48,618 nt of DNA, taken from assembly GCA_019323575.1 (NCBI GenBank), contig JAHWHB010000048.1, positions 1 through 48,618 on the forward strand, written 5' to 3'. Shown here piece by piece: positions 3,800 to 48,618 of the stretch. The stretch comes from Candidatus Woesearchaeota archaeon. Lineage in GTDB: Archaea > Nanobdellota > Nanobdellia > Woesearchaeales > ARS49. Below the pieces are notes generated by a model that made no database searches, was not told the origin of the DNA, and saw only the letters and a program-made list of their open reading frames with translations. The position numbers and the translations under genes were made by a program. Position 1 is the stretch's first letter; each line of letters starts with the position of its first letter.

Positions 3800-3826
3800 A
3801 GTGATTATTTTCTATATAGAAAAATA

Positions 3827-12769: not shown

Positions 12770-12828
12770 AAAAAACAGAACTTAACAAACAATTCTTAAA
12801 CTTTTATACTTCCAAACACGTGACAACA

Positions 12829-13110
12829 TCAAGCAGTTTCCTGCGGAACTTCCTCTTCAGAATAGCTAGGCACAGCAGCACGGCTAATAACCATAATGTC
12901 GCCAACAGCCTTAACAAGCTGGTGAGGAACAATAACACCCTTGGCACTGCCCAGAACCTTAGACAAGAAAGAATTCTTAGTGGCACGAACACGCCAGCCA
13001 TGCACCTTAGACTGAGTCAAAATAGCCTCTTCAACATCACCAAAATAATCACCAAGATCAGTAAAAACCTTCATATCATACGTTTCCTGTATCTTTTTCA
13101 TTCTAAGCAT
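12829..13110 (-). CDS. PRC-barrel domain protein
   Basis: 93 aa. MKVFTDLGDYFGDVEEAIL...VHGWRV...GVIVPHQLVKAVGDIMVI fits the PRC-barrel pattern. A strong SD (aggaggg) lies 7 nt upstream on the minus strand. Confidence 0.65.
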   Translation of the reverse strand: MLRMKKIQETYDMKVFTDLGDYFGDVEEAILTQSKVHGWRVRATKNSFLSKVLGSAKGVIVPHQLVKAVGDIMVISRAAVPSYSEEEVPQETA

Positions 13111-13209
13111 ATTAGTTCCCTCCTTTCGACACTATTTTTGAAGAGTTAAACTATATAAATATTATGGTAAAGCACAGCATTAATAAATAAAAAGAGCTAC
13201 AAAAACAAA

Positions 13210-15019: not shown

Positions 15020-17218
15020 ATGCTAAGGGGGTTCACACCAAGACTATACCAGGAAACAATACTAGCCACAGCAGCAATCAAAAACACACTAGTAGTGCTC
15101 CCAACAGGAATGGGCAAAACAGGGATAGCACTGCTGCTGGCAGCACAAAGACTAAACCAGCACTCACAATCAAAAATACTAATCCTGGCACCAACAAAAC
15201 CACTAGCAGAACAACACCTCCAAACATTCAAAGAAGCAATAGATTTTCCAGAAGAAAAATTCGCACTATTCACAGGAGAGATACCTCCAAAAAAAAGAGA
15301 ACAACTCTGGCAAACAGCACAAATCATATTCTCAACACCACAAGGACTAGAAAACGACATAATAGGAAACAAAATAGACATAACAAAAGTAAGCCTCCTG
15401 GTATTTGACGAAGCACACAGAGCAACAGGAGACTACAGCTACGTATTCATAGCAAAACAATACCACAGAAAAGCGGAGTGGCCCAGAGTACTAGCACTTA
15501 CAGCAAGCCCGGGAAGCGACACAACAAAAATAGAAGAAGTATGCAACAACTTAGGCATAGAAGCAGTAGAAATCAGAACAGAAAAAGACCCAGACGTACA
15601 ACCATACGTACAACCAATAGAAATAGAATGGAAAAAAGTAGAACTCCCAGAAGAATTCAAAAAAATACAAAACCTTCTGCAAAACTGCATAAAAGCAAAA
15701 ATCCAACAGCTCAAAAAATACGGAGTAAAAACAAACTACCTCACAAAAAAAGAACTGCTGCAAATACAGGCACAATTACAAGCAAAACTCAGAACAGAAA
15801 AAGACTATGAAGCAATGAAAGCAATAAGCCTGCTCGCAGAAATAATCAAAGCACAACACGCAGTGGAGCTGCTGGAAACACAGAGCATCGCATCACTAAA
15901 CAAATACCTGACAAATTTGTTTGAACAGGCAGAAAGCAGCAAAATAAAAGCAGTAAAAAACCTAACAGCAGACTTATCATTCAAAAGCGCATACATACTT
16001 GCGCAAAAACTACTCGAAAAAAACATAGAACACCCAAAAATAAAGGAAACGGTAGAGTTCATAACAAAAGAAATACAAGAAAACAAACTCATCAAAATAA
16101 TACTTTTCACCCAGTACAGAGACACCGCAGTAAAACTATCAGAAGAACTAAACAAACAACAAGGAGCAATAGCAAAAATCTTCGTAGGACAAGCAAAAAA
16201 AGGAGAAACAGGACTAAGCCAGAAACAACAAGCAGAGATGCTGGACATGTTCAGAGACGGAATGTTCAACATACTCATAGCAACAAGCGTGGCAGAAGAA
16301 GGACTAGACATACCAAAAGTCGACCTGGTAGTATTCTACGAACCAATACCAAGCGCGATAAGACACATACAAAGAAGAGGAAGAACAGGAAGACAAGAAA
16401 AAGGAAGAGCAACAATATTCCTCACAAAAGGAACAAGAGACGAAGCATATTCGTGGAGCGCAAAACACAAAGAAAACAGAATGATAGGAGTGCTGGAAAA
16501 AATGAGAAAAGACATCACACTAAAACTAGCACCAAAACAACCAACACTAACAAACTATGACAATAATGTAAAGATATTCGCTGACTACAGAGAAAAAACA
16601 ACGGGCACAGTAAAAGAACTGGTAGAGAAGGGAGTAACAGTAAAACTCGAAATGCTCCAATCAGCAGACTACATACTAAGCGCGAGAACAGGAGTAGAAC
16701 TAAAAACAACAGAAGACTTCGTAAACAGCATAATAGACGGCAGGCTGCTGGAACAATTAAAAGAACTAAAAAGAAACTATGAAAAACCCCTAATTATAAT
16801 ACAAGGAACACAAGACCTGTACTCAGTAAGAAACGTACACGCAAACGCGATAAGAGGAATGCTGGCAACAATAGCAATAAGCTACGGCATACCAATAATA
16901 TCAACAAAAGACGAAAAAGACAGCGCAGCACTGTTAATATCAATAGCAAAAAGAGAACAAGAAGAAAACAAAAAAGAATTCTCGCCCCACGCAGACAAAA
17001 AACCAATGACGATAAAAGAACAACAAGAATACATTGTAAGCGCGCTGCCGAACGTCGGGCCAAACCTGGCAAAAGAACTCCTAAAACACTTCAGCTCAGT
17101 GCAAGCAGTATTCATGGCATCAGAAGACGGACTTAAAAAAGTAGAAGGCGTAGGAGAAAAAATAGCAAAAGTAATAAAAGAACTAACAACACAACCATAT
17201 GAAAATGAAAGGAGATAA
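15020..17218 (+). CDS. hef: Hef (FANCM-like helicase fused to XPF/ERCC4 nuclease and HhH2)
   Basis: 732 aa. Walker A LPTGMGKT, VFDEAHRA, HIQRRGRTGR. The C-terminal ERCC4 domain has ADYREK...SADYIL...VELKTTEDFVNSIIDGRLLEQ, followed by an HhH region. Confidence 0.9.
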   Translation: MLRGFTPRLYQETILATAAIKNTLVVLPTGMGKTGIALLLAAQRLNQHSQSKILILAPTKPLAEQHLQTFKEAIDFPEEKFALFTGEIPPKKREQLWQTAQIIFSTPQGLENDIIGNKIDITKVSLLVFDEAHRATGDYSYVFIAKQYHRKAEWPRVLALTASPGSDTTKIEEVCNNLGIEAVEIRTEKDPDVQPYVQPIEIEWKKVELPEEFKKIQNLLQNCIKAKIQQLKKYGVKTNYLTKKELLQIQAQLQAKLRTEKDYEAMKAISLLAEIIKAQHAVELLETQSIASLNKYLTNLFEQAESSKIKAVKNLTADLSFKSAYILAQKLLEKNIEHPKIKETVEFITKEIQENKLIKIILFTQYRDTAVKLSEELNKQQGAIAKIFVGQAKKGETGLSQKQQAEMLDMFRDGMFNILIATSVAEEGLDIPKVDLVVFYEPIPSAIRHIQRRGRTGRQEKGRATIFLTKGTRDEAYSWSAKHKENRMIGVLEKMRKDITLKLAPKQPTLTNYDNNVKIFADYREKTTGTVKELVEKGVTVKLEMLQSADYILSARTGVELKTTEDFVNSIIDGRLLEQLKELKRNYEKPLIIIQGTQDLYSVRNVHANAIRGMLATIAISYGIPIISTKDEKDSAALLISIAKREQEENKKEFSPHADKKPMTIKEQQEYIVSALPNVGPNLAKELLKHFSSVQAVFMASEDGLKKVEGVGEKIAKVIKELTTQPYENERR

Positions 17219-17672
17219 AATAAAAATTGCGTTCTTAATTTTAATCATATTATTGGCAGGATGCAAGCAAATTGAAGACCAGACAACAGCTGAACCGCCT
17301 TTACAGGTTGTTGAAAAGAAAGAAGTTCAACCACCTCAAAAAAAGGTATTATTAGATCGATGTGAATTTAAGGAGGGTTTGGATTGCTCATATGTTGCAA
17401 GAAAAAAGACGGGATTTGAAATGGCCATAAAAAATATTCTCAATAGGCCTATGTTAAATATGACCATTTACATAGTACCAAAAGAAGGCATAAAAGGAAA
17501 ATGCCAAGAATTAAAATTTCCCGCATTGTATCCTGAACAGGCAGATTTTCGTGAAGTATCCTGCGAGGGAATTGAAAAGGAAAAATTTGAAGCAACGCTC
17601 ATGGCAGTATATTCCCTAAAAAATGAAGATACTGCCCACAGCATACGAGGAGAACTTATTCTTAACACGTAA
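17199..17672 (+). CDS. Putative secreted lipoprotein (compositional island gene 1)
   Basis: 157 aa. Signal/lipobox IAFLILIILLAGC. The start overlaps the hef 3' end by 20 nt. Base composition departs from the rest of the window. Confidence 0.6.
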   Translation: MKMKGDKIKIAFLILIILLAGCKQIEDQTTAEPPLQVVEKKEVQPPQKKVLLDRCEFKEGLDCSYVARKKTGFEMAIKNILNRPMLNMTIYIVPKEGIKGKCQELKFPALYPEQADFREVSCEGIEKEKFEATLMAVYSLKNEDTAHSIRGELILNT

Positions 17673-24248: not shown

Positions 24249-24629
24249 ATGGCAAAAGAGTTCCTATACTACGGAAAAAATTCACAAGAAATAGCAAAAA
24301 TGAGCCTTGAAGAGTTCGCAAAACTAGTACCGTCCAGAGAACGAAGAAAAATCAAACGAGGATTCACAGAAATAGAAAAGAAACTGCTTGCGGACATAAA
24401 ATCAAACCCAAAAGACATCAAAACACACGCACGAGACATGATAATCATTCCAGAAATGCTAGGAAAAACGATCAAAGTATACTCAGGAAAAGAATGGGTT
24501 CCAGTAATAATCACTCCAGAACTCTTAGGACACAGATTAGGAGAGTTCGCACTAACAAGAAGACAAGTCAGGCACAGCGCGCCAGGAATCGGAGCAACAA
24601 GAAGCAGCGCGTCGCTATCGGTGAGATAA
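24249..24629 (+). CDS. rps19: 30S ribosomal protein S19 (uS19)
   Basis: 126 aa. GKTIKVYSGKEWVPVIITPELLGHRLGEFALTR. Confidence 0.95.
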   Translation: MAKEFLYYGKNSQEIAKMSLEEFAKLVPSRERRKIKRGFTEIEKKLLADIKSNPKDIKTHARDMIIIPEMLGKTIKVYSGKEWVPVIITPELLGHRLGEFALTRRQVRHSAPGIGATRSSASLSVR

Positions 24630-25061
24630 ATGGCATACCAATATTCAACACAAATAACAGAAAACAATGCAAAAGCGGTAGGTTTGAGCATACCAATCTC
24701 ATTAAAAGCAGGCACAATGATATGCCAATCAATAAGAGGAAAAAACATACAAAAAGCCAAAAAAATGCTAGAAGAGACAATAAAGCTGAAAACACCTGTG
24801 CCATACACAAGATACAACAAAGACGTAGGACACAAACGCGGAATAGCAGCAGGAAGGTACCCAGTAAACGCATCAAAACAAATACTAAAACTGCTCAAAA
24901 ACGCAGAAGCAAACGCCCAATTCAAAGGATTAAGCACAGGCAACCTCATAGTAAAACACGCAAGCACTCAAAAAGGACCAACATCATACCATTACGGAAG
25001 ACAAAGAACAAGAGCAAAACGAGTGCATATCGAATTAGTCCTGGAAGAGGTAAAGAAATGA
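24630..25061 (+). CDS. rpl22: 50S ribosomal protein L22 (uL22)
   Basis: 143 aa. AKAVGLSIPISLKAGTMICQSIRGKNIQKAKKML. Confidence 0.95.
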   Translation: MAYQYSTQITENNAKAVGLSIPISLKAGTMICQSIRGKNIQKAKKMLEETIKLKTPVPYTRYNKDVGHKRGIAAGRYPVNASKQILKLLKNAEANAQFKGLSTGNLIVKHASTQKGPTSYHYGRQRTRAKRVHIELVLEEVKK

Positions 25062-25672
25062 TAGAACGCAAATTTATTGCGGAAAAACTGAAAGAACAAC
25101 AAATACAAGAGTTCATATCAGAGACTCTAAAAAACGTAGGCCACAGCCACACAAAACTAATGCGAACACCTCTCGGAGAAAAAATACTAATCTACGCAAG
25201 CAGGCCAGGACTAGTTGTAGGCAGAAAAGGAGAAAACATCAAGAAATTAACAAACACACTCAAAAAGAAATTCAATCTAGAAAATCCGCAAATAGAAATC
25301 GCAGAAGTGGAAAACCCGAATCTGGATGCACAAATAGTAGCAGAAAGAATAGCAAGCACAATAGAAAGATTCGGAATCAACAAGTTCAAAGCAATAGGAC
25401 ACAAAACGATGCAGGATGTAATGAACGCAGGCGCATACGGCGTAGAAATCACAATATCAGGAAAAGTACCAAGCCAAAGAGCAAAAAGCTGGAGATTCTA
25501 CAGCGGGTACCTCAAAAAATGCGGGCACATATCAGACGAGGAAGTCAAAAGAGCACACGCATACTGCATAATGAAAACAGGAGAAATAGGAGTAAAAGTC
25601 GCAATCATGGGACCACACATAAAACTACCCGACGACATAGAAATCAAAGAAGTTGCTGAGGAAAGCAAATGA
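25058..25672 (+). CDS. rps3: 30S ribosomal protein S3 (uS3)
   Basis: 204 aa from the internal ATG at 25058 (ATGA overlap with the L22 stop). KH motif GLVVGRKGENIKKL. The upstream part of track ORF 24494-25672 is out-of-frame read-through of S19/L22. Confidence 0.93.
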   Translation: MIERKFIAEKLKEQQIQEFISETLKNVGHSHTKLMRTPLGEKILIYASRPGLVVGRKGENIKKLTNTLKKKFNLENPQIEIAEVENPNLDAQIVAERIASTIERFGINKFKAIGHKTMQDVMNAGAYGVEITISGKVPSQRAKSWRFYSGYLKKCGHISDEEVKRAHAYCIMKTGEIGVKVAIMGPHIKLPDDIEIKEVAEESK

Positions 25673-27943: not shown

Positions 27944-28455
27944 ACCAAATGCAAACCCCGCGGATAGAGAAAATCACGCTCAACGTAGGAGCAGGAAAAG
28001 ACCAAACCAGACTAGAAAAAGGAGTTGCAGTACTAAAAATGATAACAGGAATAGAGCCGATGAAAACAGTCACAAGCAAAAGAATACCAACCTGGGGATT
28101 AAGACCAGGACTGCCAATAGGATGCAAACTAACACTAAGAAAAACGAAAGCATCAGAAGTGCTAAAAAGACTACTAGAGGCGAAAAACAACAAATTACAA
28201 CCATCACAATTCGATGAAGCAGGAAACATAAGCTTCGGAATACACGAATACATCGACATACCAGGAGTAACCTACGACCCAAAAATAGGAGTACTGGGCC
28301 TGCAGGTATGCGTAACACTAGAAAGACCCGGATACAGAATAAAAAGAAGAAGACTTGAAACAAAAAAAATATGCAAAAAACAAATGATAAGCAAAGAAGA
28401 AGCAATGAGTTTCATGCAAAAACAATTCAACGTAACAATAGGTGATCAATCATGA
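27940..28455 (+). CDS. rpl5: 50S ribosomal protein L5 (uL5)
   Basis: 171 aa. [13 protein letters not shown] and [11 protein letters not shown]. Confidence 0.95.
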
Positions 28456-28682
28456 CAACAAGCGATTGGAAAAAAGTATTCAAACAACTCAAGGCAAAAC
28501 CCGTCAAGCTAAAGAAATACATAAAACACAACGCTCCAAAAGAAAGAAAGACAGGACAGGCACTAAAAAGGTGCATAAGGTGCGGAAGATTCGGAGGACA
28601 CATCTCAAAATACAGACTAGAACTATGCAGGTGCTGTTTCAGAGAGATTGCAACCAACATAGGATTCAAAAAATACAGTTGA
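28452..28682 (+). CDS. rps14: 30S ribosomal protein S14 (uS14, zinc type) with an N-terminal extension
   Basis: 76 aa. [26 protein letters not shown]. Confidence 0.9.
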
Positions 28683-28691
28683 GGAAAAAAA

Positions 28692-29081
28692 ATGTTAAAT
28701 GACCCATTAGCAAACGTAATGTCGGCAATAATAACGCATGAAAAACGCGGAAAGAAAGAATTCATAGTCCATCCAGTCAGCAAAACAATCAGAAGAATAC
28801 TCACAATAATGCAGGAGCGCGGATATGTAGGCGCGCTTGAAGAAGTCAGCGAAGGAAGAGGCGGATTTGCAAAACTGAATCTCCTTGGAAACGTCAACAA
28901 GTGCGGAGTAATCAAGCCAAGATTCGCAGTAAAAACATTCGAATTCCAGAAATTCGAAAAAAGATACCTGCCTGCGAACGGAGTGGGAATCCTGCTGGTA
29001 AGCACACCAAAAGGAATAATGACACACGACCAGGCAAGAGAAAAAGGAACAGGAGGAAGGCTAATCGCCTACTGTTACTAA
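28692..29081 (+). CDS. rps8: 30S ribosomal protein S8 (uS8)
   Basis: 129 aa. MLNDPLANVMSAIITHEKRGKKE. Confidence 0.95.
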   Translation: MLNDPLANVMSAIITHEKRGKKEFIVHPVSKTIRRILTIMQERGYVGALEEVSEGRGGFAKLNLLGNVNKCGVIKPRFAVKTFEFQKFEKRYLPANGVGILLVSTPKGIMTHDQAREKGTGGRLIAYCY

Positions 29082-35589: not shown

Positions 35590-35609
35590 CTCCACAGGAA
35601 ACGCTGGGG
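35590..35609 (+). promoter_or_regulatory. ORB-like Orc1/Cdc6 box abutting the mcm TATA box
   Basis: CTCCACAGGAAA-CGCT-GGGG. It has the same dyad core and G-string as the boxes at 47479-47561, and is followed at once by TTTATAA (35610-35616). Confidence 0.5.
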
Positions 35610-35616
35610 TTTATAA
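35610..35616 (+). promoter_or_regulatory. TATA box of mcm
   Basis: ggTTTATAAc lies 55 nt upstream of the ATG. The SD gggggag lies 3 nt before the ATG. Confidence 0.5.
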
Positions 35617-40999: not shown

Positions 41000-41410
41000 T
41001 CAAAACAAACGCTTATTCTCCAAAAAATTCTTTAACGGCAAAAACAAAGGCGAAGGAATCTCATCCTTCGAGAACCAGCCAAAATCAGACGTCTTATCCG
41101 CCTCACAAATCTTAGCCTCACCACCAGCATACTCCGCCTCAACAAAAATAGTAATGTAATGCGTGCCGTCTTCAGGACACACATCATTAGTCGCACCAAC
41201 AACACGAGAATTCTTAATATCAACATTGACCTCCTCCTTAGCCTCACGAGCAGCAGTCTCCTCAGGAGACTCGCCAAACTCAAGATGACCGCCAGGAAGA
41301 CTCCACGTATGAGCACCATGCGCGCCAATCCTTCTTTGCAACAAAATCTTACCACCCTTCTTAACAAAAACACCAACACCAACTCCAGGCCTTTTCATCA
41401 TCCAAACCAC
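41000..41410 (-). CDS. Nudix hydrolase
   Basis: 136 aa. Nudix box GGHLEFGESPEETAAREAKEEVNV. The start overlaps the DP2 3' end by 13 nt. Confidence 0.85.
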   Translation of the reverse strand: MVWMMKRPGVGVGVFVKKGGKILLQRRIGAHGAHTWSLPGGHLEFGESPEETAAREAKEEVNVDIKNSRVVGATNDVCPEDGTHYITIFVEAEYAGGEAKICEADKTSDFGWFSKDEIPSPLFLPLKNFLENKRLF

Positions 41411-44400
41411 TCCCCCAAGCCAACCTGCTTATCAGGCTCCTTTCCAAAAACACTCTCCAAACGAACACGCAACAACTCAATAGTCTGATTCAAATAAGGA
41501 GAAACATTATACTTCTTGGCAAGAGAAATCATAGGGCCAATATACTTAGAAACAAAACCCTCGCTCACGGTAAAAATAATCTTGCCATTGCACTTGGTGC
41601 ATTTGCCAACAAGAGGAGGACGACGGAACTTTGTATTGCAGGAAACACAGCGGAACTCCTGCATAGAAAACTTCCTCAAATTACCCTTAGCATCCTTAAT
41701 AAAATGCTTCTCAATAACCAAACGAGCGACATCAGAAGCATCAACACTCCTCAACTTCTCAGCAAGGTCCATCTGGCCCCTAAGCTTCTCCTCCATAGAA
41801 GGAAGAGTCTTATACGCACTACAACGAACAGTATGATTGATATTAGAAACATCATGAGTAAACAACATACCCTCGTACTGCTCAGGAGTATTCAAACGAG
41901 GCTTAATCTGAGCGACCTTAACATCCCAAGGCATCTTATACTCAAGACTCGCTTTGTATAATTCCAAAGGATACCTAGAAACAACATCAATATCAAAAGC
42001 CATATCGTCAACCTCTGCAGGAGTCAAAATACTAGTCAAAACAAGAGGAGTATCCATCGTAGAACCGCGAGAAGAAGGCAGGTACTTCTTGCTAAAATTC
42101 AAAAAAGCATCCATCAACAAAACAACACAAGCCTCATCACCATCACAATCCCTTCTAGTAGCGGCGTGCAACAAAGGATGAGCAAACAAGCCCTGAGTCT
42201 TACTAAAACCAATAATCCTGCCAACAATACCCGCGCTGGTATGCGGGGCAAGAACAACAACAAGATTGCCAATCAAATCAGGAGCAGAAGAGATATTATA
42301 GAAACGAGGAAGACCATACAACAACTCCAGCTCATCATCAACAAAGCGAGAAACATTCATAAGAACGGAATCAGCACCATCATCAGGACTCTCAGTACAA
42401 CTCGGCAAAATAATATCCTGAGGCTTAAGCTCAACAACCTGATTAACATCAACAAGAGCCCCGCCATAAATATCCTTCTCATAACCCAACTCCTTCAAAA
42501 CATCAACACCAACATTAATCTCAACAGGCTTAAAATGAGTAATAGGAAGCTGAGTCATATCATAACGAGTGGTGCCGTCCTTGTAAACATGAACATCATA
42601 ACGAGCACGCAACACTCCTTTAGCAAGATGCTCAGGAATATGCTCAGAATTACTAGTGCCACGAACACCCTTAATCAACTCAGGATACTGAGCAACACCA
42701 AGCTGCTTGACAACAGCATCAAAATAGTGCTTAATAGGAATAGAACGGGCAGAACAAGCATCAGCAGGACCATGACGAGAGCACTCAGCAGAATCCTGCA
42801 AACCACAAACAGCACACTTCCACTTCTGAACAGTAGAAGAACCACAAACCTCGCAAGAATTCAAAACAGTCTCAGCATTACACTTCTCACAGTAAAAGAA
42901 CGGAAAATCGGCAAAAACCTTACCGGCCTGCAACGTGCTCTGGAAACTCCTCAAACGCCCGCCTTCCTCCCCAACAGGAAACAAAACATGAGGGCTGCCA
43001 GTAAGCTCGCGCTGCTTAGCCTTCTCAGGACGGCCCATCCTGGCACCAATAAAAGTGCCACACTTATCCCTAACAGCAAAAGGAGAAAACTCATTGATAA
43101 CGTCCAAAACCTTCTTACCCTCAGAAATGTGCTTCTTTAAATCACTAGGCTTCCCCTCCAACAAATCAAACATGGCAGAAACAACAACAGCAAAATCACG
43201 CTCGACAACCACATACTCATTATTAACAAGAATGTGAGGCAAACCAATAAGCTCCAAATAACGCTTAGCATTATCAAGAGGAAGAACAATCTTATCAACG
43301 CCCTTCTCAGAAGCATGAACCTTAGCATGATCAAACCAATTCAAAAGCTCAGAAAAATCAACCAAAGACAACAAATTCCAATAAAAAGTATAAGCAGGAT
43401 GAACAGGGGTCTTAGTAGAAAGAGCAATAGACACAGCTTCCTTACCAGAAGGAATCTTTCTCAAAGGATTCTTCAAAAACTCAGAAAAACGAGAATCAGA
43501 AACCTCCTGAGCCCACCACTCAGGACAATAACCAGCAGGAGCAAGAGTGTGCGCGCGATTAAAAAAGTCACCATATGAAACCAATACATCACCCAAAAAC
43601 AAGATTTCCTTAATAAAAGGCTGAACCCGCTTTGCATCATCCAAAGAATTAACCTGAACAACAGAACCATCAGCCAACTTTACAATAGGACCATCAATAA
43701 AATCGCAAGCAGTCATACTGGCAGCCTTGCCCGGCCTCTCAGTCTTTAACTGAGTGCCGGTAGCAATATACTGATTCAAAATAAACATGGTGGCAGGATG
43801 AATAGCCTGAGCACTAAAACCACTGGTGCGACAACGACCATACCTCAAACGAAAACCACCAGGAGACAAAGGATAACCAAGAACAGGCCTGCCGGCAACC
43901 AAATCAGAAATATAAGTATAATCAGGAGAAATCTTGTGCTGAGAAGCAACCTTCTCTTTTCCTGCTTTAGCAGTCTTCTGAATTTTCAAGAAATCCTCCA
44001 AAAACTTCCAGGAATCCAATTTGAAATCCTTACCCCAAACACCAAGCTGCTTCCAAAGCTTAGGAGCCTTCAAAGGAATACAAGAAGAAAGAACCAGACA
44101 AAAACCAGACCTGATAAAATTAGTAGGAACACGCGGCAGGTCCTTATAATTGCTAACCTCAATACGCTCACTGGGATCCCCATTAACCTCTACAGGCAAA
44201 TGCTTCAACAAAAACGAAAGCTCAGCCTCGCTCGGATAATACTGCAAATTAGTAACACGCTCATGATAATCCTGAAGCTCAGTAGAAGCACGCTTAATCT
44301 CATCAGGCTGGGCATCATAAACACCAAAACCAAGACACTGCCTCACATAATCAGCAATAATCACACTAACAGCAGCAGCCGTGCCACCAGCATTCCTGAT

Positions 44401-44859
44401 AGGACCTGCAAAATTCACACAAACGTACTCACCACCATCCATCCGCTTCTTAACCTCAACATTAACAATACCGTCCAAAGGAGAGCTGACAACACCCACA
44501 GTAACATAAGCGAAACCAGTACGAACACCAACCTCCATAGCCTGCTGCCTGCTGGAAAACTTGCAAAACCTCTCCAAAGCAACCTCCTCAGCAATCTTCA
44601 AAGCAACACGCCAGTCAAGAGAGCCAAACTCCTTCTCCAACTCCATAATCCGCTCGACAACACCAGAGCCAACGATCTGAGGGGCAACAACAGAAATCAA
44701 GCCAACAACACGCTGAGCCATATTATCAGCAAGAGAAACCTCAACAGAAGAAACAGGATCAAAACCCTTGGCACGAGCCTTAGAAGCGGCAGAGTGCAAC
44801 CTAGCAACCTCAGACTTCAAACCATCAAAATACTTGTTCATCAAAGGGGACGCAATCAT
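41398..44859 (-). CDS. dp2: DNA polymerase D large subunit (DP2), with a canonical C-terminal PIP box
   Basis: 1153 aa. Full-length match to the DP2 architecture, including Cys clusters (CEKCNAETVLNSCEVCG, CAVCG, CVSCNTKF...CTKCNG). The C-terminus is KQVGLGEWFG, i.e. QxxLxxWF (41404-41427). Confidence 0.95.
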   Translation of the reverse strand: MIASPLMNKYFDGLKSEVARLHSAASKARAKGFDPVSSVEVSLADNMAQRVVGLISVVAPQIVGSGVVERIMELEKEFGSLDWRVALKIAEEVALERFCKFSSRQQAMEVGVRTGFAYVTVGVVSSPLDGIVNVEVKKRMDGGEYVCVNFAGPIRNAGGTAAAVSVIIADYVRQCLGFGVYDAQPDEIKRASTELQDYHERVTNLQYYPSEAELSFLLKHLPVEVNGDPSERIEVSNYKDLPRVPTNFIRSGFCLVLSSCIPLKAPKLWKQLGVWGKDFKLDSWKFLEDFLKIQKTAKAGKEKVASQHKISPDYTYISDLVAGRPVLGYPLSPGGFRLRYGRCRTSGFSAQAIHPATMFILNQYIATGTQLKTERPGKAASMTACDFIDGPIVKLADGSVVQVNSLDDAKRVQPFIKEILFLGDVLVSYGDFFNRAHTLAPAGYCPEWWAQEVSDSRFSEFLKNPLRKIPSGKEAVSIALSTKTPVHPAYTFYWNLLSLVDFSELLNWFDHAKVHASEKGVDKIVLPLDNAKRYLELIGLPHILVNNEYVVVERDFAVVVSAMFDLLEGKPSDLKKHISEGKKVLDVINEFSPFAVRDKCGTFIGARMGRPEKAKQRELTGSPHVLFPVGEEGGRLRSFQSTLQAGKVFADFPFFYCEKCNAETVLNSCEVCGSSTVQKWKCAVCGLQDSAECSRHGPADACSARSIPIKHYFDAVVKQLGVAQYPELIKGVRGTSNSEHIPEHLAKGVLRARYDVHVYKDGTTRYDMTQLPITHFKPVEINVGVDVLKELGYEKDIYGGALVDVNQVVELKPQDIILPSCTESPDDGADSVLMNVSRFVDDELELLYGLPRFYNISSAPDLIGNLVVVLAPHTSAGIVGRIIGFSKTQGLFAHPLLHAATRRDCDGDEACVVLLMDAFLNFSKKYLPSSRGSTMDTPLVLTSILTPAEVDDMAFDIDVVSRYPLELYKASLEYKMPWDVKVAQIKPRLNTPEQYEGMLFTHDVSNINHTVRCSAYKTLPSMEEKLRGQMDLAEKLRSVDASDVARLVIEKHFIKDAKGNLRKFSMQEFRCVSCNTKFRRPPLVGKCTKCNGKIIFTVSEGFVSKYIGPMISLAKKYNVSPYLNQTIELLRVRLESVFGKEPDKQVGLGEWFG

Positions 44860-44860
44860 A

Positions 44861-46288
44861 TCAAAACCTCAACATCAAAACCTGCCTAGTATTCAGATTA
44901 ACAACAGGAACAACACCCGGCTCTGGATCGTGACCAAACTTTTCCTGATAATTAGTCCTTGACTGAAAACAACTGCCACAAACAAGAGTGGTGCCGCGAT
45001 AATGCAAAAAACCTGCCTTATGAATATGACCAGAAAAAAACAAATCAGGAATCTTATCAATAACAAGAGGATCAGAACGCGATTCAGGAATATACAAAGT
45101 ACTGGTGTGCTGAGGGGCAAGATGCCTGCGCTGCAACAAAAACCTCATAATCAAAGGGGCTCTGTCAGAAATATGCTTGCCGCTGTTCTTAATACTAGGA
45201 ACAATCTCACCATAATCATCAAAGCTGAAACCGTGATACATCAAAACATCAAAACCAGGAAAATCAGCAGAAGAATGAATATTAACAAGAGAAGGATTAC
45301 AAACAACAGTCACATTAGGAAGCTCCCAAATAGCCTTAGCATAATCCTTTGAAAGCAAAGGCTGAGGCTCACTAATCCTGCCAGCATCATGATTCCCAGC
45401 ACAGAGAATAACATTAATGGAACCAGGAATACGAGAAAACAAACGAGCACACTCATTATACTGCTCCCTAATATCAGAAATCTCCAGCTCCTTTTCCTGA
45501 TTAGGATAAATCCCAACACCATCAACAAGGTCGCCAGGAATAAAAACATACTTCAATTTAGAAGCAATAACCTTCTCCTCAGGAGCGCCATACTCCCCAT
45601 TAACCCAAGAAAGAAAATTCTCAAACTTCTCACGCTCAAAAAGAGAGGAACCCACATGAATACAGGAAAGAACAGCAGCATAAACCTCATCAGGAGAACG
45701 CTTAGCCTCGGCAATAGGAATGTCAGGAAAAACAAAAGAATTAGCAAAAACAATATTATCACCAAGAGTGCCGGAAACGCCCAACACCTCATCCATAACA
45801 ACATCAGAAGCAAGAGAGTGCAATTCGGGCCTATTTTTAGAAAACAAAACAGGAATACTGCCAGAGGCATCCTCCAAGGTCAAAAGAACGTGCTCGTTCT
45901 TAGTAATACGTTTGTCAGAAACAATGCCAATAATAGAAATAGACTCCCTGTCCTTCTTAGAACGCAAACGAGAGATAGAAGTAAGATTCTGCAGTTCCTG
46001 ACGAGACTGCAAAAACTTCTCAAGCGCGCGATACCGCGCGTTAAAATAATCAACAAAATCCTGAACAGAACGCTTCCTGGGCTTATCATCATACTCAGAA
46101 ACAACACGCACAGGCGATATCTCAGGATTTTCAAACAAGTCAGAAGGCAAAACCCCCTTAGAAAGAGAATCATGCCACTTCTCAGCAACACCAGGCAGAC
46201 TCAACTTAGAAATAATCTCGCGACTAACAAGAACATTATGCTTCAACAAAGCACCAATAACCTCCTTCTTAACAGCTAAGAGCTCCAT
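44861..46288 (-). CDS. dp1: DNA polymerase D small subunit (DP1, Mre11-like phosphoesterase exonuclease)
   Basis: 475 aa. An OB region, then the calcineurin-like motifs FIPGDLVDG, CAGNHD and FFSGHIH. Confidence 0.93.
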   Translation of the reverse strand: MELLAVKKEVIGALLKHNVLVSREIISKLSLPGVAEKWHDSLSKGVLPSDLFENPEISPVRVVSEYDDKPRKRSVQDFVDYFNARYRALEKFLQSRQELQNLTSISRLRSKKDRESISIIGIVSDKRITKNEHVLLTLEDASGSIPVLFSKNRPELHSLASDVVMDEVLGVSGTLGDNIVFANSFVFPDIPIAEAKRSPDEVYAAVLSCIHVGSSLFEREKFENFLSWVNGEYGAPEEKVIASKLKYVFIPGDLVDGVGIYPNQEKELEISDIREQYNECARLFSRIPGSINVILCAGNHDAGRISEPQPLLSKDYAKAIWELPNVTVVCNPSLVNIHSSADFPGFDVLMYHGFSFDDYGEIVPSIKNSGKHISDRAPLIMRFLLQRRHLAPQHTSTLYIPESRSDPLVIDKIPDLFFSGHIHKAGFLHYRGTTLVCGSCFQSRTNYQEKFGHDPEPGVVPVVNLNTRQVLMLRF

Positions 46289-47493
46289 ACCAAATTAAGT
46301 TCCTCAGACAAAATACCCTTAATCCTCTGGATGAGCGCATCGTTAATCCCGATGCTAATCTCGCGAGTGCGGCCATACCTTCCCTTACTGATAACCTTAG
46401 CGTTAATAATGCCAAGCATGTCAAGTTCAGCAATAATATCACTAATACGGCGCTGGGTCAAAGGACGAAGACCAACCTGACTGCAATAACGCTCGTACAA
46501 CGAGTAAATCTCTCCTGTAAAAACACCCTGCTTTTGCCCGCAAGCGTCCAAAATAGAGAACAAAGTAATCTGGTATTGTTTAGGCTGGGTAGCAACAACA
46601 TCAAGAATACGATCCCGCTCAATCTTGTCTTCAGCCAAGTCAAGATGAGCAATACAAACCTTTTTTTCATTCTGACGCTCAGCGAGCTCACCAGCAACAC
46701 GCAACAACTCCAAAGCACGACGCGCATCACCATGCTCACGAGCAGCAAAAGCAGCACACTTCTCGAGAACACCCTCCTCCAAAGTGCCAGGAAAAAAAGC
46801 AAGAAGAGCACGCTGGTGCAAAATGTTCTGAATCTGCTCAGCATTGTACGGAGGGAAAATAAGCTCCTCCTCACTCAAAGAACTCTTAACACGAGGGTCA
46901 AGAGTATCAGTAAAAACAAGATCATTAGAAATACCAACAAGAGTGATCTGGGAATTCTTAAGCTCAGAGTTAATCCTCGTCAGATTGTATAGAAGCTCGT
47001 CGCCAGACTTGCCAACAAGCTGGTCGATCTCATCAAGAATCAACAAAAGAATATGCTTATCAGCATCAAGAGTGTTAAAGAAAAGATGATAAACCTCGTC
47101 GGTAGGAAGACCAGTAGGGGGAATATTTTTACCGTACTCCCTAAGAAGCTGGGCAACAATCCTATACTCAGTATCAGCCAATTTTTTCAACTTACAATTA
47201 AGATAAATAACCTTAATCGGAAGCTGTTTTTGCTTGGAGATTTCAGTAAGCTGCTGAGTGGTATACTTAACAGTCAGAGTCTTACCCGTGCCTGTTTTAC
47301 CATAAATAAAAACATTAGACGGCTTTTCTCCTCTCAAAACAGGAGCAAGAATATTAGCAAGCTGTTGAATCTGCTCATCCCTATGAGAGATTTGAGCAGG
47401 AGAATAATTAGACTGCAAAACAACCTTATTCTTAAAAATCGGTTTTTTCTCGAGATACTTCTCAAAAAAACCCACCAACCCCTTTTCTTTCAT
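46276..47493 (-). CDS. orc1: Orc1/Cdc6 replication initiator
   Basis: 405 aa from the ATG at 47493 (MKEKGLVGFFEKYL...). Walker A GKTGTGKT, Walker B LLILDEID, and a C-terminal winged helix. The TATA box (tttatata on the minus strand, 47517-47524) lies 27 nt upstream. I reject the 85 upstream codons of the track ORF because they translate the AT-rich origin. Confidence 0.9.
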   Translation of the reverse strand: MKEKGLVGFFEKYLEKKPIFKNKVVLQSNYSPAQISHRDEQIQQLANILAPVLRGEKPSNVFIYGKTGTGKTLTVKYTTQQLTEISKQKQLPIKVIYLNCKLKKLADTEYRIVAQLLREYGKNIPPTGLPTDEVYHLFFNTLDADKHILLLILDEIDQLVGKSGDELLYNLTRINSELKNSQITLVGISNDLVFTDTLDPRVKSSLSEEELIFPPYNAEQIQNILHQRALLAFFPGTLEEGVLEKCAAFAAREHGDARRALELLRVAGELAERQNEKKVCIAHLDLAEDKIERDRILDVVATQPKQYQITLFSILDACGQKQGVFTGEIYSLYERYCSQVGLRPLTQRRISDIIAELDMLGIINAKVISKGRYGRTREISIGINDALIQRIKGILSEELNLVWSS

Positions 47494-47499
47494 GTGGAA
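47479..47499 (-). promoter_or_regulatory. ORB-like box 1 (overlaps the orc1 start codon)
   Basis: The plus strand reads CCCC-ttttc-TTTCATGTGGAA. This matches box 2 at 11 of 12 dyad positions with identical 5-nt spacing to the C/G string. Confidence 0.55.
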
Positions 47500-47516
47500 A
47501 AAGGCAAGGGAGTTAG

Positions 47517-47524
47517 TATATAAA
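47517..47524 (-). promoter_or_regulatory. TATA box of orc1/cdc6
   Basis: Reads tttatata on the minus strand, 27 nt upstream of the ATG at 47493 (leaderless). Confidence 0.5.
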
Positions 47525-47539
47525 TGTTTGTAATCACCA

Positions 47540-47561
47540 CCCCCTAACATTTCCTGTGGAA
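47540..47561 (-). promoter_or_regulatory. ORB-like box 2
   Basis: The minus strand reads TTCCACAGGAAA-tgtta-GGGGG. The dyad differs only in its two central bases from the archaeal mini-ORB core TTCCAGTGGAAA, and a G-string follows. Confidence 0.6.
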
Positions 47562-47625
47562 CCGGCAAGTGTTGTGTTGTTGTTTTTATGAGTGAAAAAG
47601 AGAAAAAAAGACGAAAAACAACACC

Positions 47626-47671
47626 TTTATAATATTTTTCTATATAAATAATAAATAATAATATAAAAAAA
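47626..47671. other. A/T-only stretch, candidate DNA unwinding element
   Basis: 45 of 46 nt are A or T (tttataatatttttctatataaataataaataataatataaaaaaa). It is bracketed by ORB boxes of opposite orientation. A 10-bp inverted repeat (47578-47587 / 47614-47623) lies just to its left. Confidence 0.5.
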
Positions 47672-47697
47672 CAAACCACAATACATACATATGGGAT

Positions 47698-47719
47698 TTG
47701 CACAAGAAGCAGAGGGGGG
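47698..47719 (+). promoter_or_regulatory. ORB-like box 3 (degenerate, inverted relative to boxes 1 and 2)
   Basis: TTGCACAAGAAG-caga-GGGGGG. It matches 9 of 12 positions of the box 2 dyad with the same spacing to the G-string. The half-palindrome CGTCGATAT follows at 47726-47734. Confidence 0.4.
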
Positions 47720-47772
47720 TATTGCCGTCGATATTTAGTTTTTGCCACTCCCTAATAGCAAAAACAGAAAGG

Positions 47773-47780
47773 TTTATATA
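47773..47780 (+). promoter_or_regulatory. TATA box of the trmB-like gene
   Basis: ggTTTATATAgggg lies about 56 nt upstream of the ATG at 47836. Confidence 0.45.
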
Positions 47781-47802
47781 GGGGTTATACCTACGCAAGA
47801 GT

Positions 47803-47824
47803 AATAACAACACATTGTGTTATT
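47803..47824. promoter_or_regulatory. Inverted repeat AATAACA-N8-TGTTATT near the predicted trmB-like transcription start
   Basis: 7-bp arms at 47803-47809 and 47818-47824, about 25-45 nt downstream of the TATA box. Candidate auto-operator. Confidence 0.3.
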
Positions 47825-47835
47825 GAGGATGAAAA

Positions 47836-48618
47836 ATGATTGTTCAAAAGGATTTTTTAAACAGGCTTAAGGATTTTGGTTTGAACAGCTACGAAGCAAA
47901 ACTGTGGACCGCACTTCTATCGAGAGGAGTGGCAACCGCAGGAGAACTTTCTGACATCGCTAACGTGCCAAGAAGCAGAAGCTACGACGTACTAGAAAGC
48001 TTAGAAAGAAAAGGATTTGTAATAATGAAACTAGGCAAGCCAATTAAATATATAGCTGTGCCTCCAGCAGAAGTCCTCGAGAGAGTCAAGAAAACAATCC
48101 AAGAAGACGCAACAAAACAAGTACAGTTACTTGATACACTAAGAAAAAGTGAAGTTCTAGGAGAACTAAACACACTCCACAAACAAGGAATAGAACTTGT
48201 AGAACCTGCAGAACTAACAGGAGCAGTAAAAGGCAGAGTAAACCTGTATAACCATCTTGCATCCTCAATAAAAAATGCAGAAAAAACAATCAATATCATA
48301 ACAACCGCACCTGGTTTGACACGCAAATCAGAGACGCTAAAAAACGCTTTCCAAAAAGCGAAAGAAAAAGGAGTGAGAATAAGAATAATATCGCCTGCAC
48401 AACCAAACCAGGCAAAAACACTAAGCTCCGTAGCACAAGTAAGGCAGACAGAAGCAATACCAGCAAGATTCTGCGTAATAGACGGAAAACAAATAACATT
48501 CATGATACTAGACGACGCAGACATACATCCAAACTACGACTTCGGAGTATGGGTTAACGCTGCAGGCTTTGCAAAAAGCTTTGACAACATATTCAACTTA
48601 ATCTGGGACAAACACTAA
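47836..48618 (+). CDS. TrmB-family transcriptional regulator
   Basis: 260 aa. N-terminal wHTH LKDFGLNSYEAKLWTALLSRGVATAGELSDIANVPRSRSYDVLESLERKGFV, a coiled-coil linker and a C-terminal effector-like domain. The stop is at the last base of the window. Confidence 0.8.
   Translation: MIVQKDFLNRLKDFGLNSYEAKLWTALLSRGVATAGELSDIANVPRSRSYDVLESLERKGFVIMKLGKPIKYIAVPPAEVLERVKKTIQEDATKQVQLLDTLRKSEVLGELNTLHKQGIELVEPAELTGAVKGRVNLYNHLASSIKNAEKTINIITTAPGLTRKSETLKNAFQKAKEKGVRIRIISPAQPNQAKTLSSVAQVRQTEAIPARFCVIDGKQITFMILDDADIHPNYDFGVWVNAAGFAKSFDNIFNLIWDKH

What the first reader, a model, noticed from the sequence alone, without database searches (positions are those of the whole stretch)
47479..47835. Candidate replication origin: oppositely oriented ORB-like boxes flanking a 46-nt A/T block between orc1/cdc6 and a TrmB-like gene, with no local reversal of the strand bias
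Two well-matched boxes share one orientation. Box 1 is CCCC-N5-TTTCATGTGGAA at 47479-47499 and overlaps the orc1 ATG. Box 2 is CCCCC-N5-TTTCCTGTGGAA at 47540-47561.

A degenerate box lies in the opposite orientation (TTGCACAAGAAG-N4-GGGGGG at 47698-47719). Between them are a 10-bp inverted repeat (47578-47587 / 47614-47623) and a stretch in which 45 of 46 nt are A or T (47626-47671).

The dyad TTCCACAGGAAA is almost the mini-ORB core known from Pyrococcus, Sulfolobus and Halobacterium origins (TTCCAGTGGAAA). Box 1 over the start codon suggests autoregulation of orc1.

One point is puzzling. Only the first ~100 nt of the trmB-like gene to the right show reversed bias (T at or above A, G above C). 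The rest returns to the A+C-rich pattern. The extreme skew of the window therefore does not switch here, at least not within the 780 bp available.
Basis: partly seen in the sequence, partly recalled or inferred. Interest (0 to 1): 0.65.

Follow-up and report, generated by a model that had tools for sequence, protein, structure and literature searches.

The report
Woesearchaeal replication origin without skew switch
This is a textbook-looking archaeal replication origin (three Orc1-binding boxes around an easily melted A/T block, next to the orc1 gene) in a tiny DPANN archaeon, but the genome's extraordinarily strong A-over-T strand bias runs straight through it without reversing, so either the site does not fire in the usual two-way manner or replication starts elsewhere.

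Summary
Boxes 1 and 2 (47479-47499 and 47540-47561, minus strand) and box 3 (47698-47719, plus strand) match the published ORB consensus, G-string included. They flank the most A/T-rich and least stable stretch of the window.

In 80 related Woesearchaeota loci the ORB pattern is 50 times denser within 600 bp upstream of orc1 than elsewhere. The layout of inverted ORBs, A/T block and orc1 promoter is conserved. The encoded initiator is of the Sulfolobus Orc1-1 type, and the gene order matches Pyrococcus (oriC, cdc6, PolD DP1, DP2). Box 1 covers the start of a leaderless orc1 mRNA, which fits autoregulation.

So this is a canonical oriC1-type module and a new member of a known kind.

The puzzle is also real, and larger than reported. 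At four-fold degenerate sites the plus strand has about 12-16 A per T whichever way genes point, while G and C are about equal. The sign is the same on both sides of the origin:
- from about 57 kb left to 1.9 kb right in this species;
- from -20 to +72 kb in two long contigs of relatives.

Distant relatives lack the bias. Origin firing is untested. Unidirectional replication and a remote origin both remain open.

The parts
47479..47499 (-). ORB box 1 (TTCCACATGAAAgaaaaGGGG). It overlaps the orc1 transcription start and ATG, and its 3' part encodes the first codons of Orc1 (M-K-E-K-G).
   Evidence: sequence; 1 mismatch to the pattern; TCCAxxxG conserved at this position in all 10 clade members.
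47540..47561 (-). ORB box 2 (TTCCACAGGAAAtgttaGGGGG). It lies 15 nt upstream of the orc1 BRE/TATA and is the DUE-proximal ORB on the orc1 side.
   Evidence: 0 mismatches; orthologous box in every clade member and in most distant relatives, at -65 to -120 from orc1.
47698..47719 (+). ORB box 3 in inverted orientation (TTGCACAAGAAGcagaGGGGGG). Its core is degenerate in this species; relatives carry TTGCAyNGGAAA-N4-GGGG at the same place.
   Evidence: 3 mismatches; conserved CCCC-N-TTTCCnnTGCAA in relatives; inner spacing to box 2 is 139 nt here and 144-160 nt in the clade.
47626..47671 (.). A/T block (45/46 A/T), the candidate duplex unwinding element between the inverted ORBs.
   Evidence: the most A/T-rich 46-mer in the window, and the 60-bp window at 47627-47686 is the least stable duplex (z = 4.69).
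47637..47646 (-). Invariant motif inside the DUE, TATATAGAAA as read on the minus strand. Its function is unknown. Candidate roles are a TBP/TATA-like site or a binding site for a nucleoid protein.
   Evidence: invariant columns; present upstream of orc1 in 12/12 clade members, always in the orc1 orientation, and 57 times denser there than in the rest of 1.17 Mb; palindromic copy at 3809-3826.
47517..47524 (-). orc1 TATA box (TTTATATA). Its centre is about 27 nt upstream of the ATG, which implies a leaderless mRNA.
   Evidence: AAAnnTTTATATA invariant. Homologues align from Orc1 residue 1.
46276..47493 (-). orc1/cdc6 initiator gene (405 aa) of the Orc1-1 type.
   Evidence: Cdc6_C, Cdc6_lid and AAA domains; NF001625, 526 bits against a cut-off of 501; 2QBY_A Sulfolobus Orc1-1, E = 8e-108, with TQRR, GRYGxT and TGL conserved.
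41398..46288 (-). PolD small (DP1, 44861-46288) and large (DP2, 41398-44859) subunit genes. They overlap or abut orc1, so they are probably one operon under the ORB-flanked promoter.
   Evidence: Pfam PolC_DP2, Metallophos/DNA_pol_E_B. The gene order matches Pyrococcus oriC-cdc6-dp1-dp2 (PMC1904270, PMC4010727).
47773..47780 (+). TATA box of the divergent trmBL2-like gene. A conserved 5' UTR element, GAGTAACAACA, follows it.
47836..48618 (+). Divergent TrmBL2-like HTH gene (260 aa). It is a frequent neighbour of this origin in Woesearchaeota.
   Evidence: TrmB HTH; full-length match to TrmBL2 5BQT/5BPD, E = 5e-19; below the equivalog cut-off; divergently adjacent to orc1 in 28 of 63 loci.
35590..35610 (+). 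Single additional ORB (CTCCACAGGAAACGCTGGGGT), 22 nt upstream of the TATA-like element of the mcm gene. It is probably an Orc1 operator rather than a second origin.
   Evidence: 2 mismatches; context; MCM and TBP identities; relatives carry an ORB upstream of mcm or of the adjacent tbp.

Best explanation
The 47479-47719 interval is the oriC1-type replication origin module of a Woesearchaeota (DPANN) chromosome, and it doubles as the control region of the orc1-polD operon.

Shown here:
- Three ORB elements with dyad core and G-string, in two orientations.
- They flank the least stable A/T block of the window.
- They lie next to an Orc1-1-type initiator gene.
- The arrangement is conserved in related genomes.

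Inferred from Sulfolobus, Aeropyrum and Pyrococcus:
- One Orc1 monomer binds each ORB with defined polarity. The winged helix contacts the TTCCA...GAAA dyad and the AAA+ ISM contacts the G-string side.
- The two inward-facing ORBs (boxes 2 and 3, about 139 bp apart) recruit MCM onto the A/T block, where the duplex opens.
- Box 1 on the transcription start and box 2 just upstream of BRE/TATA let bound Orc1 throttle transcription of the leaderless orc1-DP1-DP2 operon. A single ORB does the same at the mcm promoter.

Unresolved: how forks leave this site. The extreme A/T strand bias does not reverse here. If the bias is replication-driven, then the origin fires in one direction only, or it fires rarely.
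For: - Motif match and chance expectation; consensus from PMC1868953.
- DUE as the window's stability minimum.
- Fifty-fold enrichment of ORBs upstream of orc1 across 81 loci, with a stereotyped layout ('+' box at -65 to -120, '-' box at -230 to -500).
- Position-specific conservation of boxes 1-3, of both TATA boxes and of a DUE-internal motif, against a background of 57% identity.
- Woesearchaeal consensus T-TCCA-y-A-n-GAAA-y-n-A-A-GGGG-T from 70 sites, with extra conservation at positions the search did not constrain.
- Orc1-1-type initiator with conserved DNA-contact segments. Contact residues are from PMC3089459.
- Pyrococcus-like synteny oriC-cdc6-dp1-dp2; PMC1904270.
- Inverted ORB2/ORB3 around the DUE are individually required in Sulfolobus: PMC12141716.
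- Box 3, the DUE and the ORB-ORB spacing are retained throughout the skewed clade, although orc1 autoregulation alone would not need them.
Against: - There is no strand-bias inflection at the site in this species or in any of eleven related loci. The bias is strong enough that a bidirectional origin should leave an obvious switch.
- Box 3 is degenerate in this species (3 mismatches).
- No binding, unwinding, marker-frequency or ARS data exist.
- Every ORB also sits close to a promoter, so a purely regulatory role cannot be excluded.
Confidence: 0.6

Rival explanations
1. The region is only an Orc1 operator, or a dormant origin. The ORBs serve as binding sites through which Orc1 regulates the orc1-polD operon, the trmBL2-like gene and mcm, as a replication regulon. 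Chromosome replication starts at another, unsampled site and forks sweep through this locus in one direction.
For: - The strand bias keeps one sign from -20 kb to +72 kb around orc1 and across the locus in all clade members.
- Each ORB lies next to a core promoter: box 1 on the transcription start, box 2 15 nt from BRE/TATA, box 3 about 54 nt from the trmB TATA, and the mcm box 22 nt from its TATA.
- Single ORBs recur at tbp and mcm promoters in relatives.
- Dormant cdc6-linked origins, and Orc1/Cdc6 proteins acting as regulators, are documented (PMC4595724, PMC5333045, PMC9738581).
Against: - The complete ORB-DUE-ORB geometry and a DUE-internal motif are conserved in the skewed clade.
- No second orc1/cdc6 gene or ORB cluster was found in about 150 kb sampled from clade genomes.
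- The oriC1/Orc1-1 origin is the ancestral, generally active origin in archaea (PMC4010727).
- Sampling only about 92 kb of an 875-kb contig cannot exclude or confirm a remote origin.
Confidence: 0.27
2. The resemblance is chance within an ordinary A/T-rich divergent promoter region. On this view the boxes are not protein-binding sites.
For: - The 12-mer core alone is not enriched in the window.
- A/T-rich intergenic regions with TATA boxes are common (one search lists several).
Against: - The full pattern gives 5 hits against 0.33 expected, with 3 clustered here.
- Across relatives the pattern is 50 times denser upstream of orc1.
- The boxes form invariant islands in an otherwise 57%-identical alignment.
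Confidence: 0.03

Closest known systems
Pyrococcus abyssi/furiosus oriC (Thermococcales single origin)
   Same: - Origin directly upstream of cdc6/orc1, followed by the PolD DP1 and DP2 genes.
- ORBs with TTCC...GAA cores in inverted orientation around A/T-rich DNA (PMC1904270, PMC4010727).
   Different: - Pyrococcus has many 13-bp mini-ORBs plus two 34-bp ORBs, and a second ORB cluster inside dp1. Here there are only three ORBs, and none in dp1.
- In Pyrococcus oriC was first predicted from compositional skew and replication is bidirectional (PMC4010727). Here the bias does not switch.
Sulfolobus oriC1 (ORB1, ORB2-DUE/ucm-ORB3, Orc1-1)
   Same: - Three ORBs, two of them inverted around an A/T-rich DUE (about 130-bp module there, about 180 bp outer span here).
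- The initiator is the closest solved homologue (2QBY_A).
- A short conserved motif lies inside the DUE between the ORBs (ucm there, TATATAGAAA here; PMC12141716).
   Different: - The DUE motif differs in sequence: ucm is ATTATACAAAC.
- No UBP homologue was looked for.
- Sulfolobus has three origins, and marker-frequency peaks show bidirectional firing.
- The neighbouring gene here is TrmBL2-like.
Haloferax volcanii oriC1 and other haloarchaeal oriC1
   Same: - orc1 with a divergent neighbour gene.
- ORBs about 89% identical to the same consensus, with a G-string.
- A DP1 gene nearby (PMC1868953).
   Different: - Halophile ORBs carry an extended second G-string.
- The intergenic region is 1.4 kb with two DUEs.
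- GC-skew analysis helped predict the origins there.
CPR bacteria of order UBA1400 (Microgenomates Ch65, Collierbacteria, Beckwithbacteria) with whole-chromosome strand disparity
   Same: - An ultra-small symbiont-type lineage.
- A very large, clade-specific base disparity between the two strands that is independent of gene orientation and does not reverse where expected. Unidirectional replication has been proposed (PMC7143001).
   Different: - They are bacteria with a DnaA system.
- Their disparity is G against C, with A and T about equal. Here it is A against T, with G and C about equal at four-fold sites.
- It was shown there on closed genomes. Here only about 92 kb of an 875-kb contig could be sampled.

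Membership tests
Archaeal oriC1-type origin (Orc1-1 / ORB / DUE) | Lies immediately next to an orc1/cdc6 initiator gene | tested here: met
   orc1 occupies 46276-47493, and box 1 overlaps its ATG.
Archaeal oriC1-type origin (Orc1-1 / ORB / DUE) | Repeated ORB elements matching the consensus dyad core plus G-string | tested here: met
   Boxes 1-3 compared with GTTCCAGTGGAAAC-AAA----GGGGG (PMC1868953).
Archaeal oriC1-type origin (Orc1-1 / ORB / DUE) | At least two ORBs in inverted orientation flanking an A/T-rich unwinding element | tested here: met
   Box 2 (minus strand) and box 3 (plus strand) flank 47626-47671, which is the window's stability minimum. Which end of an ORB faces the DUE in the model origins was not checked.
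Archaeal oriC1-type origin (Orc1-1 / ORB / DUE) | Architecture conserved at orthologous loci | tested here: met
   covering 80 GTDB loci and 10 close relatives aligned.
Archaeal oriC1-type origin (Orc1-1 / ORB / DUE) | Cognate initiator of Orc1-1 type with the winged-helix and ISM DNA-contact segments | tested here: met
   2QBY_A at E = 8e-108, with TQRR, GRYGxT and TGL aligned and conserved. Residues are from PMC3089459.
Archaeal oriC1-type origin (Orc1-1 / ORB / DUE) | Orc1 binds the boxes, and replication initiates there (footprint, 2D gel, marker frequency, ARS) | not testable with these tools
   No reads, coverage data or wet-lab data are available.
Archaeal oriC1-type origin (Orc1-1 / ORB / DUE) | Strand-composition switch at the origin. 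This is the usual in-silico criterion, and not all archaeal origins show it. | tested here: not met
   The sign is the same on both sides. Distant relatives have no usable skew.
Orc1-autoregulated promoter | Initiator binding site overlapping the core promoter or transcription start of its own gene | tested here: met
   Box 1 covers the ATG and inferred start, with the TATA box centred about 27 nt upstream. Box 2 lies 15 nt upstream of BRE/TATA. Both are conserved.
Orc1-autoregulated promoter | Orc1 occupancy changes orc1 transcription | not testable with these tools
   Requires in vitro transcription or expression data.
ucm/UBP-type DUE element (Sulfolobales) | Short conserved motif inside the DUE between the inverted ORBs that also occurs at other intergenic sites | tested here: met
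   TATATAGAAA at 47637-47646, in 12/12 clade members. A second copy lies at 3809-3826.
ucm/UBP-type DUE element (Sulfolobales) | Motif sequence equals the ucm (ATTATACAAAC), and a UBP homologue is encoded | tested here: not met
   The sequence differs. A UBP homologue was not searched for. The resemblance is positional only.
Chromosome-wide strand-asymmetric (unidirectionally replicated) genomes | Skew of one sign along an entire closed chromosome | tested here: inconclusive
   The sign is uniform over all sampled DNA: about 59 kb in this species, and two 21-kb samples spanning about 92 kb in each of two long contigs. About 90% of the 875-kb contig could not be fetched.

The most novel reading that the evidence does not exclude
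In this Woesearchaeota clade the canonical Orc1/ORB origin is active but replication from it is asymmetric. It would be unidirectional theta replication, or a strand-displacement-like mode, so that one strand plays the same role around the whole chromosome. That would produce a chromosome-wide A-over-T disparity (four-fold-site AT skew about 0.85-0.9) with no switch at the origin. It would be an archaeal counterpart of the CPR UBA1400 genomes and of mitochondrial heavy/light strands, but with a pure A/T signature.
Probability: 0.25. Interest if true: 0.9.

Novelty: new member of a known kind. Interest (0 to 1): 0.6.

Why it matters
No DPANN replication origin has been characterised experimentally. 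This locus gives a compact and strongly conserved ORB-DUE-ORB module of about 240 bp, a clade-wide ORB consensus and a cognate Orc1-1-type initiator, all of which could be tested directly in vitro.

The more important point is the contrast. A textbook origin sits inside DNA whose synonymous sites carry 12-16 A per T on one strand, irrespective of gene direction, and the bias does not flip at the origin.

If the bias reflects fork direction, this clade offers a natural test of whether an archaeal Orc1/MCM origin can fire in one direction only. If it does not, a new strand-specific mutational process has to be explained. Either answer bears on how replication works in ultra-small symbiotic archaea, and on using skew to locate origins or check assemblies of such genomes.

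Tried and rejected
1. Gene start. An exact look-up of the 405-aa Orc1 found nothing, because gene callers used the upstream ATG at 47550 (424 aa). I kept ATG 47493 because 80 homologues align from residue 1 and the invariant TATA box is centred about 27 nt upstream. In some relatives a 60-130-nt leader separates box 1 from the ATG.

2. The 10-bp inverted repeat is exact but not conserved, so it was dropped as a functional part.

3. RNA and bacterial-signal scans found nothing. Rfam gave no family anywhere in the window. The sigma-70 and terminator scan gave no hits and does not apply to archaea anyway.

4. A full-text search for the ORB string returned only unrelated primers.

5. I tested whether trmB's weakly skewed 5' end marks a short rightward replication zone. 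The attenuation is mirrored at the 5' end of orc1 and is a general 5'-end effect. Rejected as a switch.

6. I had inferred fork direction from 'G+T-rich means leading strand'. I abandoned this because G and C are about equal at four-fold sites, and the third-position GC skew is a by-product of the A/T bias acting on two-fold codons.

7. Walking outward with PAN and Topo VI-A orthologues reached -20 kb and +72 kb and found no switch.

8. I looked for dispersed repeats that could be used to sample the rest of the 875-kb contig. None were found.

9. I tested for an ORB directly upstream of mcm in distant relatives. It is absent within 260 nt in 16 of 17. In several relatives it sits upstream of the adjacent tbp instead.

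10. Skew in distant relatives is too weak to test for an inflection.
Full report
**What the window is**

The right end of the window encodes, on the minus strand, a NUDIX protein (41000-41410), PolD DP2 (41398-44859), PolD DP1 (44861-46288) and Orc1/Cdc6 (46276-47493). A 342-bp intergenic region follows, and then a divergent TrmB-family gene (47836-48618) whose stop codon is the last base of the window.

The closest genomes are Woesearchaeota/Nanoarchaeota MAGs, with Orc1 82-87% identical in the nearest ten and 61-70% identical in about seventy others.

Orc1 passes the NCBIfam ORC1 equivalog cut-off. Its best solved homologue is Sulfolobus Orc1-1 (2QBY_A, E = 8e-108), followed by Aeropyrum ORC1 (2V1U). 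The recognition-helix TQRR, the GRYGxT wing and the TGL ISM segment are all conserved (contact residues from PMC3089459).

The neighbouring protein matches TrmBL2, a Thermococcales chromatin protein, over its full length at E = 5e-19. It falls below the equivalog cut-off.

**Checking the observation**

Read on the minus strand, box 1 is TTCCACATGAAAgaaaaGGGG and box 2 is TTCCACAGGAAAtgttaGGGGG. Box 3 on the plus strand is TTGCACAAGAAGcagaGGGGGG.

With up to 3 mismatches the full pattern occurs 5 times in the window against 0.33 expected. No shuffle out of 100 reached 5, and three of the hits lie here. The dyad core alone is not enriched.

The A/T block is 45/46 A/T. It is the most extreme 46-mer in the window and holds the least stable 60-bp duplex (z = 4.7).

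The 10-bp inverted repeat is exact but low-complexity and not conserved.

**Comparative evidence**

I scanned the window and 80 related loci for TCCAnnnGAAA-N3-6-GGGG, allowing one mismatch in the core. There were 70 hits in the 44 kb lying -600 to +30 from orc1 starts, and 36 hits in the other 1.13 Mb. That is 1.59 against 0.032 per kb.

The layout is stereotyped. One box reads toward orc1 at -65 to -120, and an inverted box lies at -230 to -500.

The 70 sites give the consensus T-TCCA-y-A-n-GAAA-y-n-A-A-GGGG-T. There is additional conservation at positions my pattern did not constrain. This is essentially the published consensus GTTCCAGTGGAAAC-AAA----GGGGG (PMC1868953).

I aligned the intergenic region of ten close relatives, which are 57% identical overall. 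Invariant islands fall exactly at:
- box 3;
- a motif inside the A/T block (TATATAGAAA);
- box 2;
- the orc1 BRE/TATA;
- box 1;
- the trmB TATA and its 5' UTR.

The inner spacing of the inverted ORBs is 139 nt here and 144-160 nt in the clade. The distance from box 2 to the orc1 ATG, by contrast, varies from 67 to 183 nt.

The gene order origin-cdc6-DP1-DP2 is that of Pyrococcus (PMC1904270, PMC4010727). The ORB-DUE-ORB core is that of Sulfolobus oriC1, where each inverted ORB is individually required for firing (PMC12141716).

**Promoter overlap**

The orc1 TATA box (TTTATATA, 47517-47524, minus strand) is centred about 27 nt from the ATG. The mRNA is therefore probably leaderless, and box 1 covers its start.

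The first five codons (M-K-E-K-G) are encoded by the ORB itself.

In six relatives (L012, L013, L014, L016, L019 and L102) a 22-130-nt leader with a GGTGAT Shine-Dalgarno sequence has been inserted. Box 1 stays at the transcription start rather than moving with the ATG. That argues it is a DNA element and not a coding constraint.

Box 2 ends 15 nt from the BRE/TATA. Autoregulation of an orc1-DP1-DP2 operon is a sound inference but is not shown.

A fourth ORB (35590-35610, 2 mismatches) lies 22 nt upstream of the TATA-like element of mcm. Relatives carry an ORB upstream of mcm or of the adjacent tbp. This suggests a small Orc1 regulon.

**The strand bias**

The window as a whole is A 41%, T 18%, G 18%, C 23%.

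At four-fold degenerate sites, expressed on the plus strand, the counts are:

| Genes on | A | T | G | C | AT skew |
|---|---|---|---|---|---|
| plus strand | 2293 | 183 | 343 | 435 | +0.85 |
| minus strand | 1843 | 113 | 310 | 226 | +0.88 |

Genes on one strand therefore end their codons in A, and genes on the other strand end them in T.

G and C are balanced apart from a small coding-strand effect. The negative third-position GC skew is a by-product of the A/T bias acting on two-fold codons. For that reason I do not infer fork direction from the sign.

The bias continues in every direction that could be sampled:
- 1.1 kb beyond trmB (L002);
- about 10 kb beyond the left end of the window (L091);
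- 10 kb on both sides of orc1 in the close relatives;
- from -20 kb to +72 kb in two long contigs, sampled as two 21-kb stretches in each. The 875,259-nt JGI contig was sampled at 18.4-39.5 and 89.6-110.7 kb, and the 229-kb NCBI contig at 130.9-152.0 and 201.1-222.3 kb.

A LAGLIDADG gene in L091 is unskewed, as expected for recently acquired DNA under a mutational bias.

Woesearchaeota with 61-70% Orc1 identity show essentially no such bias, so it is specific to this clade.

The weak skew in the first 100 nt of trmB is an attenuation. It is mirrored at the 5' end of orc1 and, more weakly, at gene starts in general.

No second orc1 gene or ORB cluster occurs in about 150 kb sampled from clade genomes.

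**Interpretation**

That the boxes are genuine Orc1-binding ORBs is very likely (about 0.9). That the module is, or descends from, the chromosomal origin follows from homology of sequence, architecture, initiator type and synteny.

Whether it fires, and how, is open. A bidirectional origin in a genome with this bias should leave an unmistakable switch, and there is none. Three readings remain:
- The origin fires asymmetrically, so that the whole chromosome has one strand identity. The precedent is CPR order UBA1400, where closed genomes show a linear cumulative GC skew and unidirectional replication was proposed (PMC7143001).
- The origin is dormant or purely regulatory, and forks from a remote origin sweep through it.
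- The bias is not tied to fork direction.

With about 10% of an 875-kb contig sampled, a remote origin would be missed about 80% of the time, so the data do not discriminate. Conservation of box 3, the DUE motif and the ORB spacing within the skewed clade argues mildly against a dead origin.

I found no report of this bias in Woesearchaeota in the searchable literature. One DPANN genome is reported to have an ordinary bidirectional skew pattern (PMC7111523).

**Verdict**

The finding is a correct identification of a canonical archaeal origin module in a lineage where none has been studied. It is a new member of a known kind.

Its unusual value lies in the contradiction with the surrounding strand bias. 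That contradiction is confirmed, quantified, shown to be clade-wide and left unexplained.

Noticed in passing
window 1-48618, plus L091, L099, L102, L104 and L106: There is an extreme strand asymmetry that is purely A against T at synonymous sites. Four-fold-site AT skew on the plus strand is +0.85 for plus-strand genes and +0.88 for minus-strand genes, while G and C are about equal. It is specific to this clade and absent in Woesearchaeota with 61-70% Orc1 identity. No switch was seen in any DNA sampled. I found no literature report of it.
   Followed up: partly
window 35590-35610 (and L029, L032, L055, L058, L059, L063): A single full ORB sits at the mcm promoter. In several relatives it lies upstream of the adjacent tbp gene instead. 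This suggests that Orc1 regulates tbp and mcm as well as its own operon.
   Followed up: partly
window 3809-3826: A palindromic copy (TTTTCTATATAGAAAAA) of the invariant DUE-internal motif lies in another very A/T-rich intergenic region, upstream of the gyrase-A-like gene. The same 15-mer links the origin and an intergenic site in the 875-kb relative (L099 and L104). It may be a binding site for a nucleoid or TATA-binding factor.
   Followed up: partly
window about 47592, about 47997 and 48618; table: Assemblies break here repeatedly. All ten Logan contigs for this species that were read (eight shown) end at the same point 162 nt into trmB, a JGI contig starts just left of the A/T block, and an NCBI contig ends at the trmB stop, as the window does. 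Of 80 GTDB contigs, 23 end within 1 kb upstream of orc1 and about 3 end within 1 kb downstream. The likely causes are the extreme A/T content or k-mers shared between strains.
   Followed up: no
L012, L013, L014, L016, L019, L102 (alignment A1, columns 405-530): A subclade has a 22-130-nt insertion between box 1 and the orc1 ATG. The insertion carries an inverted repeat (for example GCAAGAAAGCC...GGCTTTCTT) and a GGTGAT Shine-Dalgarno sequence. This converts a leaderless orc1 mRNA into one with a structured leader.
   Followed up: no
L031, L044, L049, L060, L067, L068, L071, L082, L088, at about -5.8 kb from orc1: Distant relatives that lack an ORB next to orc1 carry a perfect ORB (GTTCCAyAGGAAATnAAGGGGTC) abutting tetranucleotide tandem repeats. 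In the four loci checked (L060, L068, L082, L088) it lies inside a 205-230-aa ORF, and flanking sequence encodes an HTH-like segment. This recalls the intragenic ORB cluster in Pyrococcus dp1.
   Followed up: partly
L091 18438-19139; window 12820-13149, 17199-17672, 24494-25672, 28442-28702: A few ORFs lack the strand bias. The LAGLIDADG endonuclease gene has a four-fold AT skew of +0.14 on the locus strand, against about -0.8 for its neighbours. These are candidates for recent acquisition or for mis-called ORFs, and they are useful internal controls showing that the bias is mutational.
   Followed up: no
window 47836-48618: The origin-adjacent gene is a full-length TrmBL2-like protein; TrmBL2 is a chromatin protein in Thermococcales. 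It is the divergent neighbour of orc1 in 28 of 63 related loci. Its own skew is weaker than that of its neighbours (four-fold AT skew +0.54), and its first 33 codons are near parity.
   Followed up: partly
window 1-48618: No Rfam family reaches its gathering score anywhere in 48.6 kb, including tRNA families.
   Followed up: no
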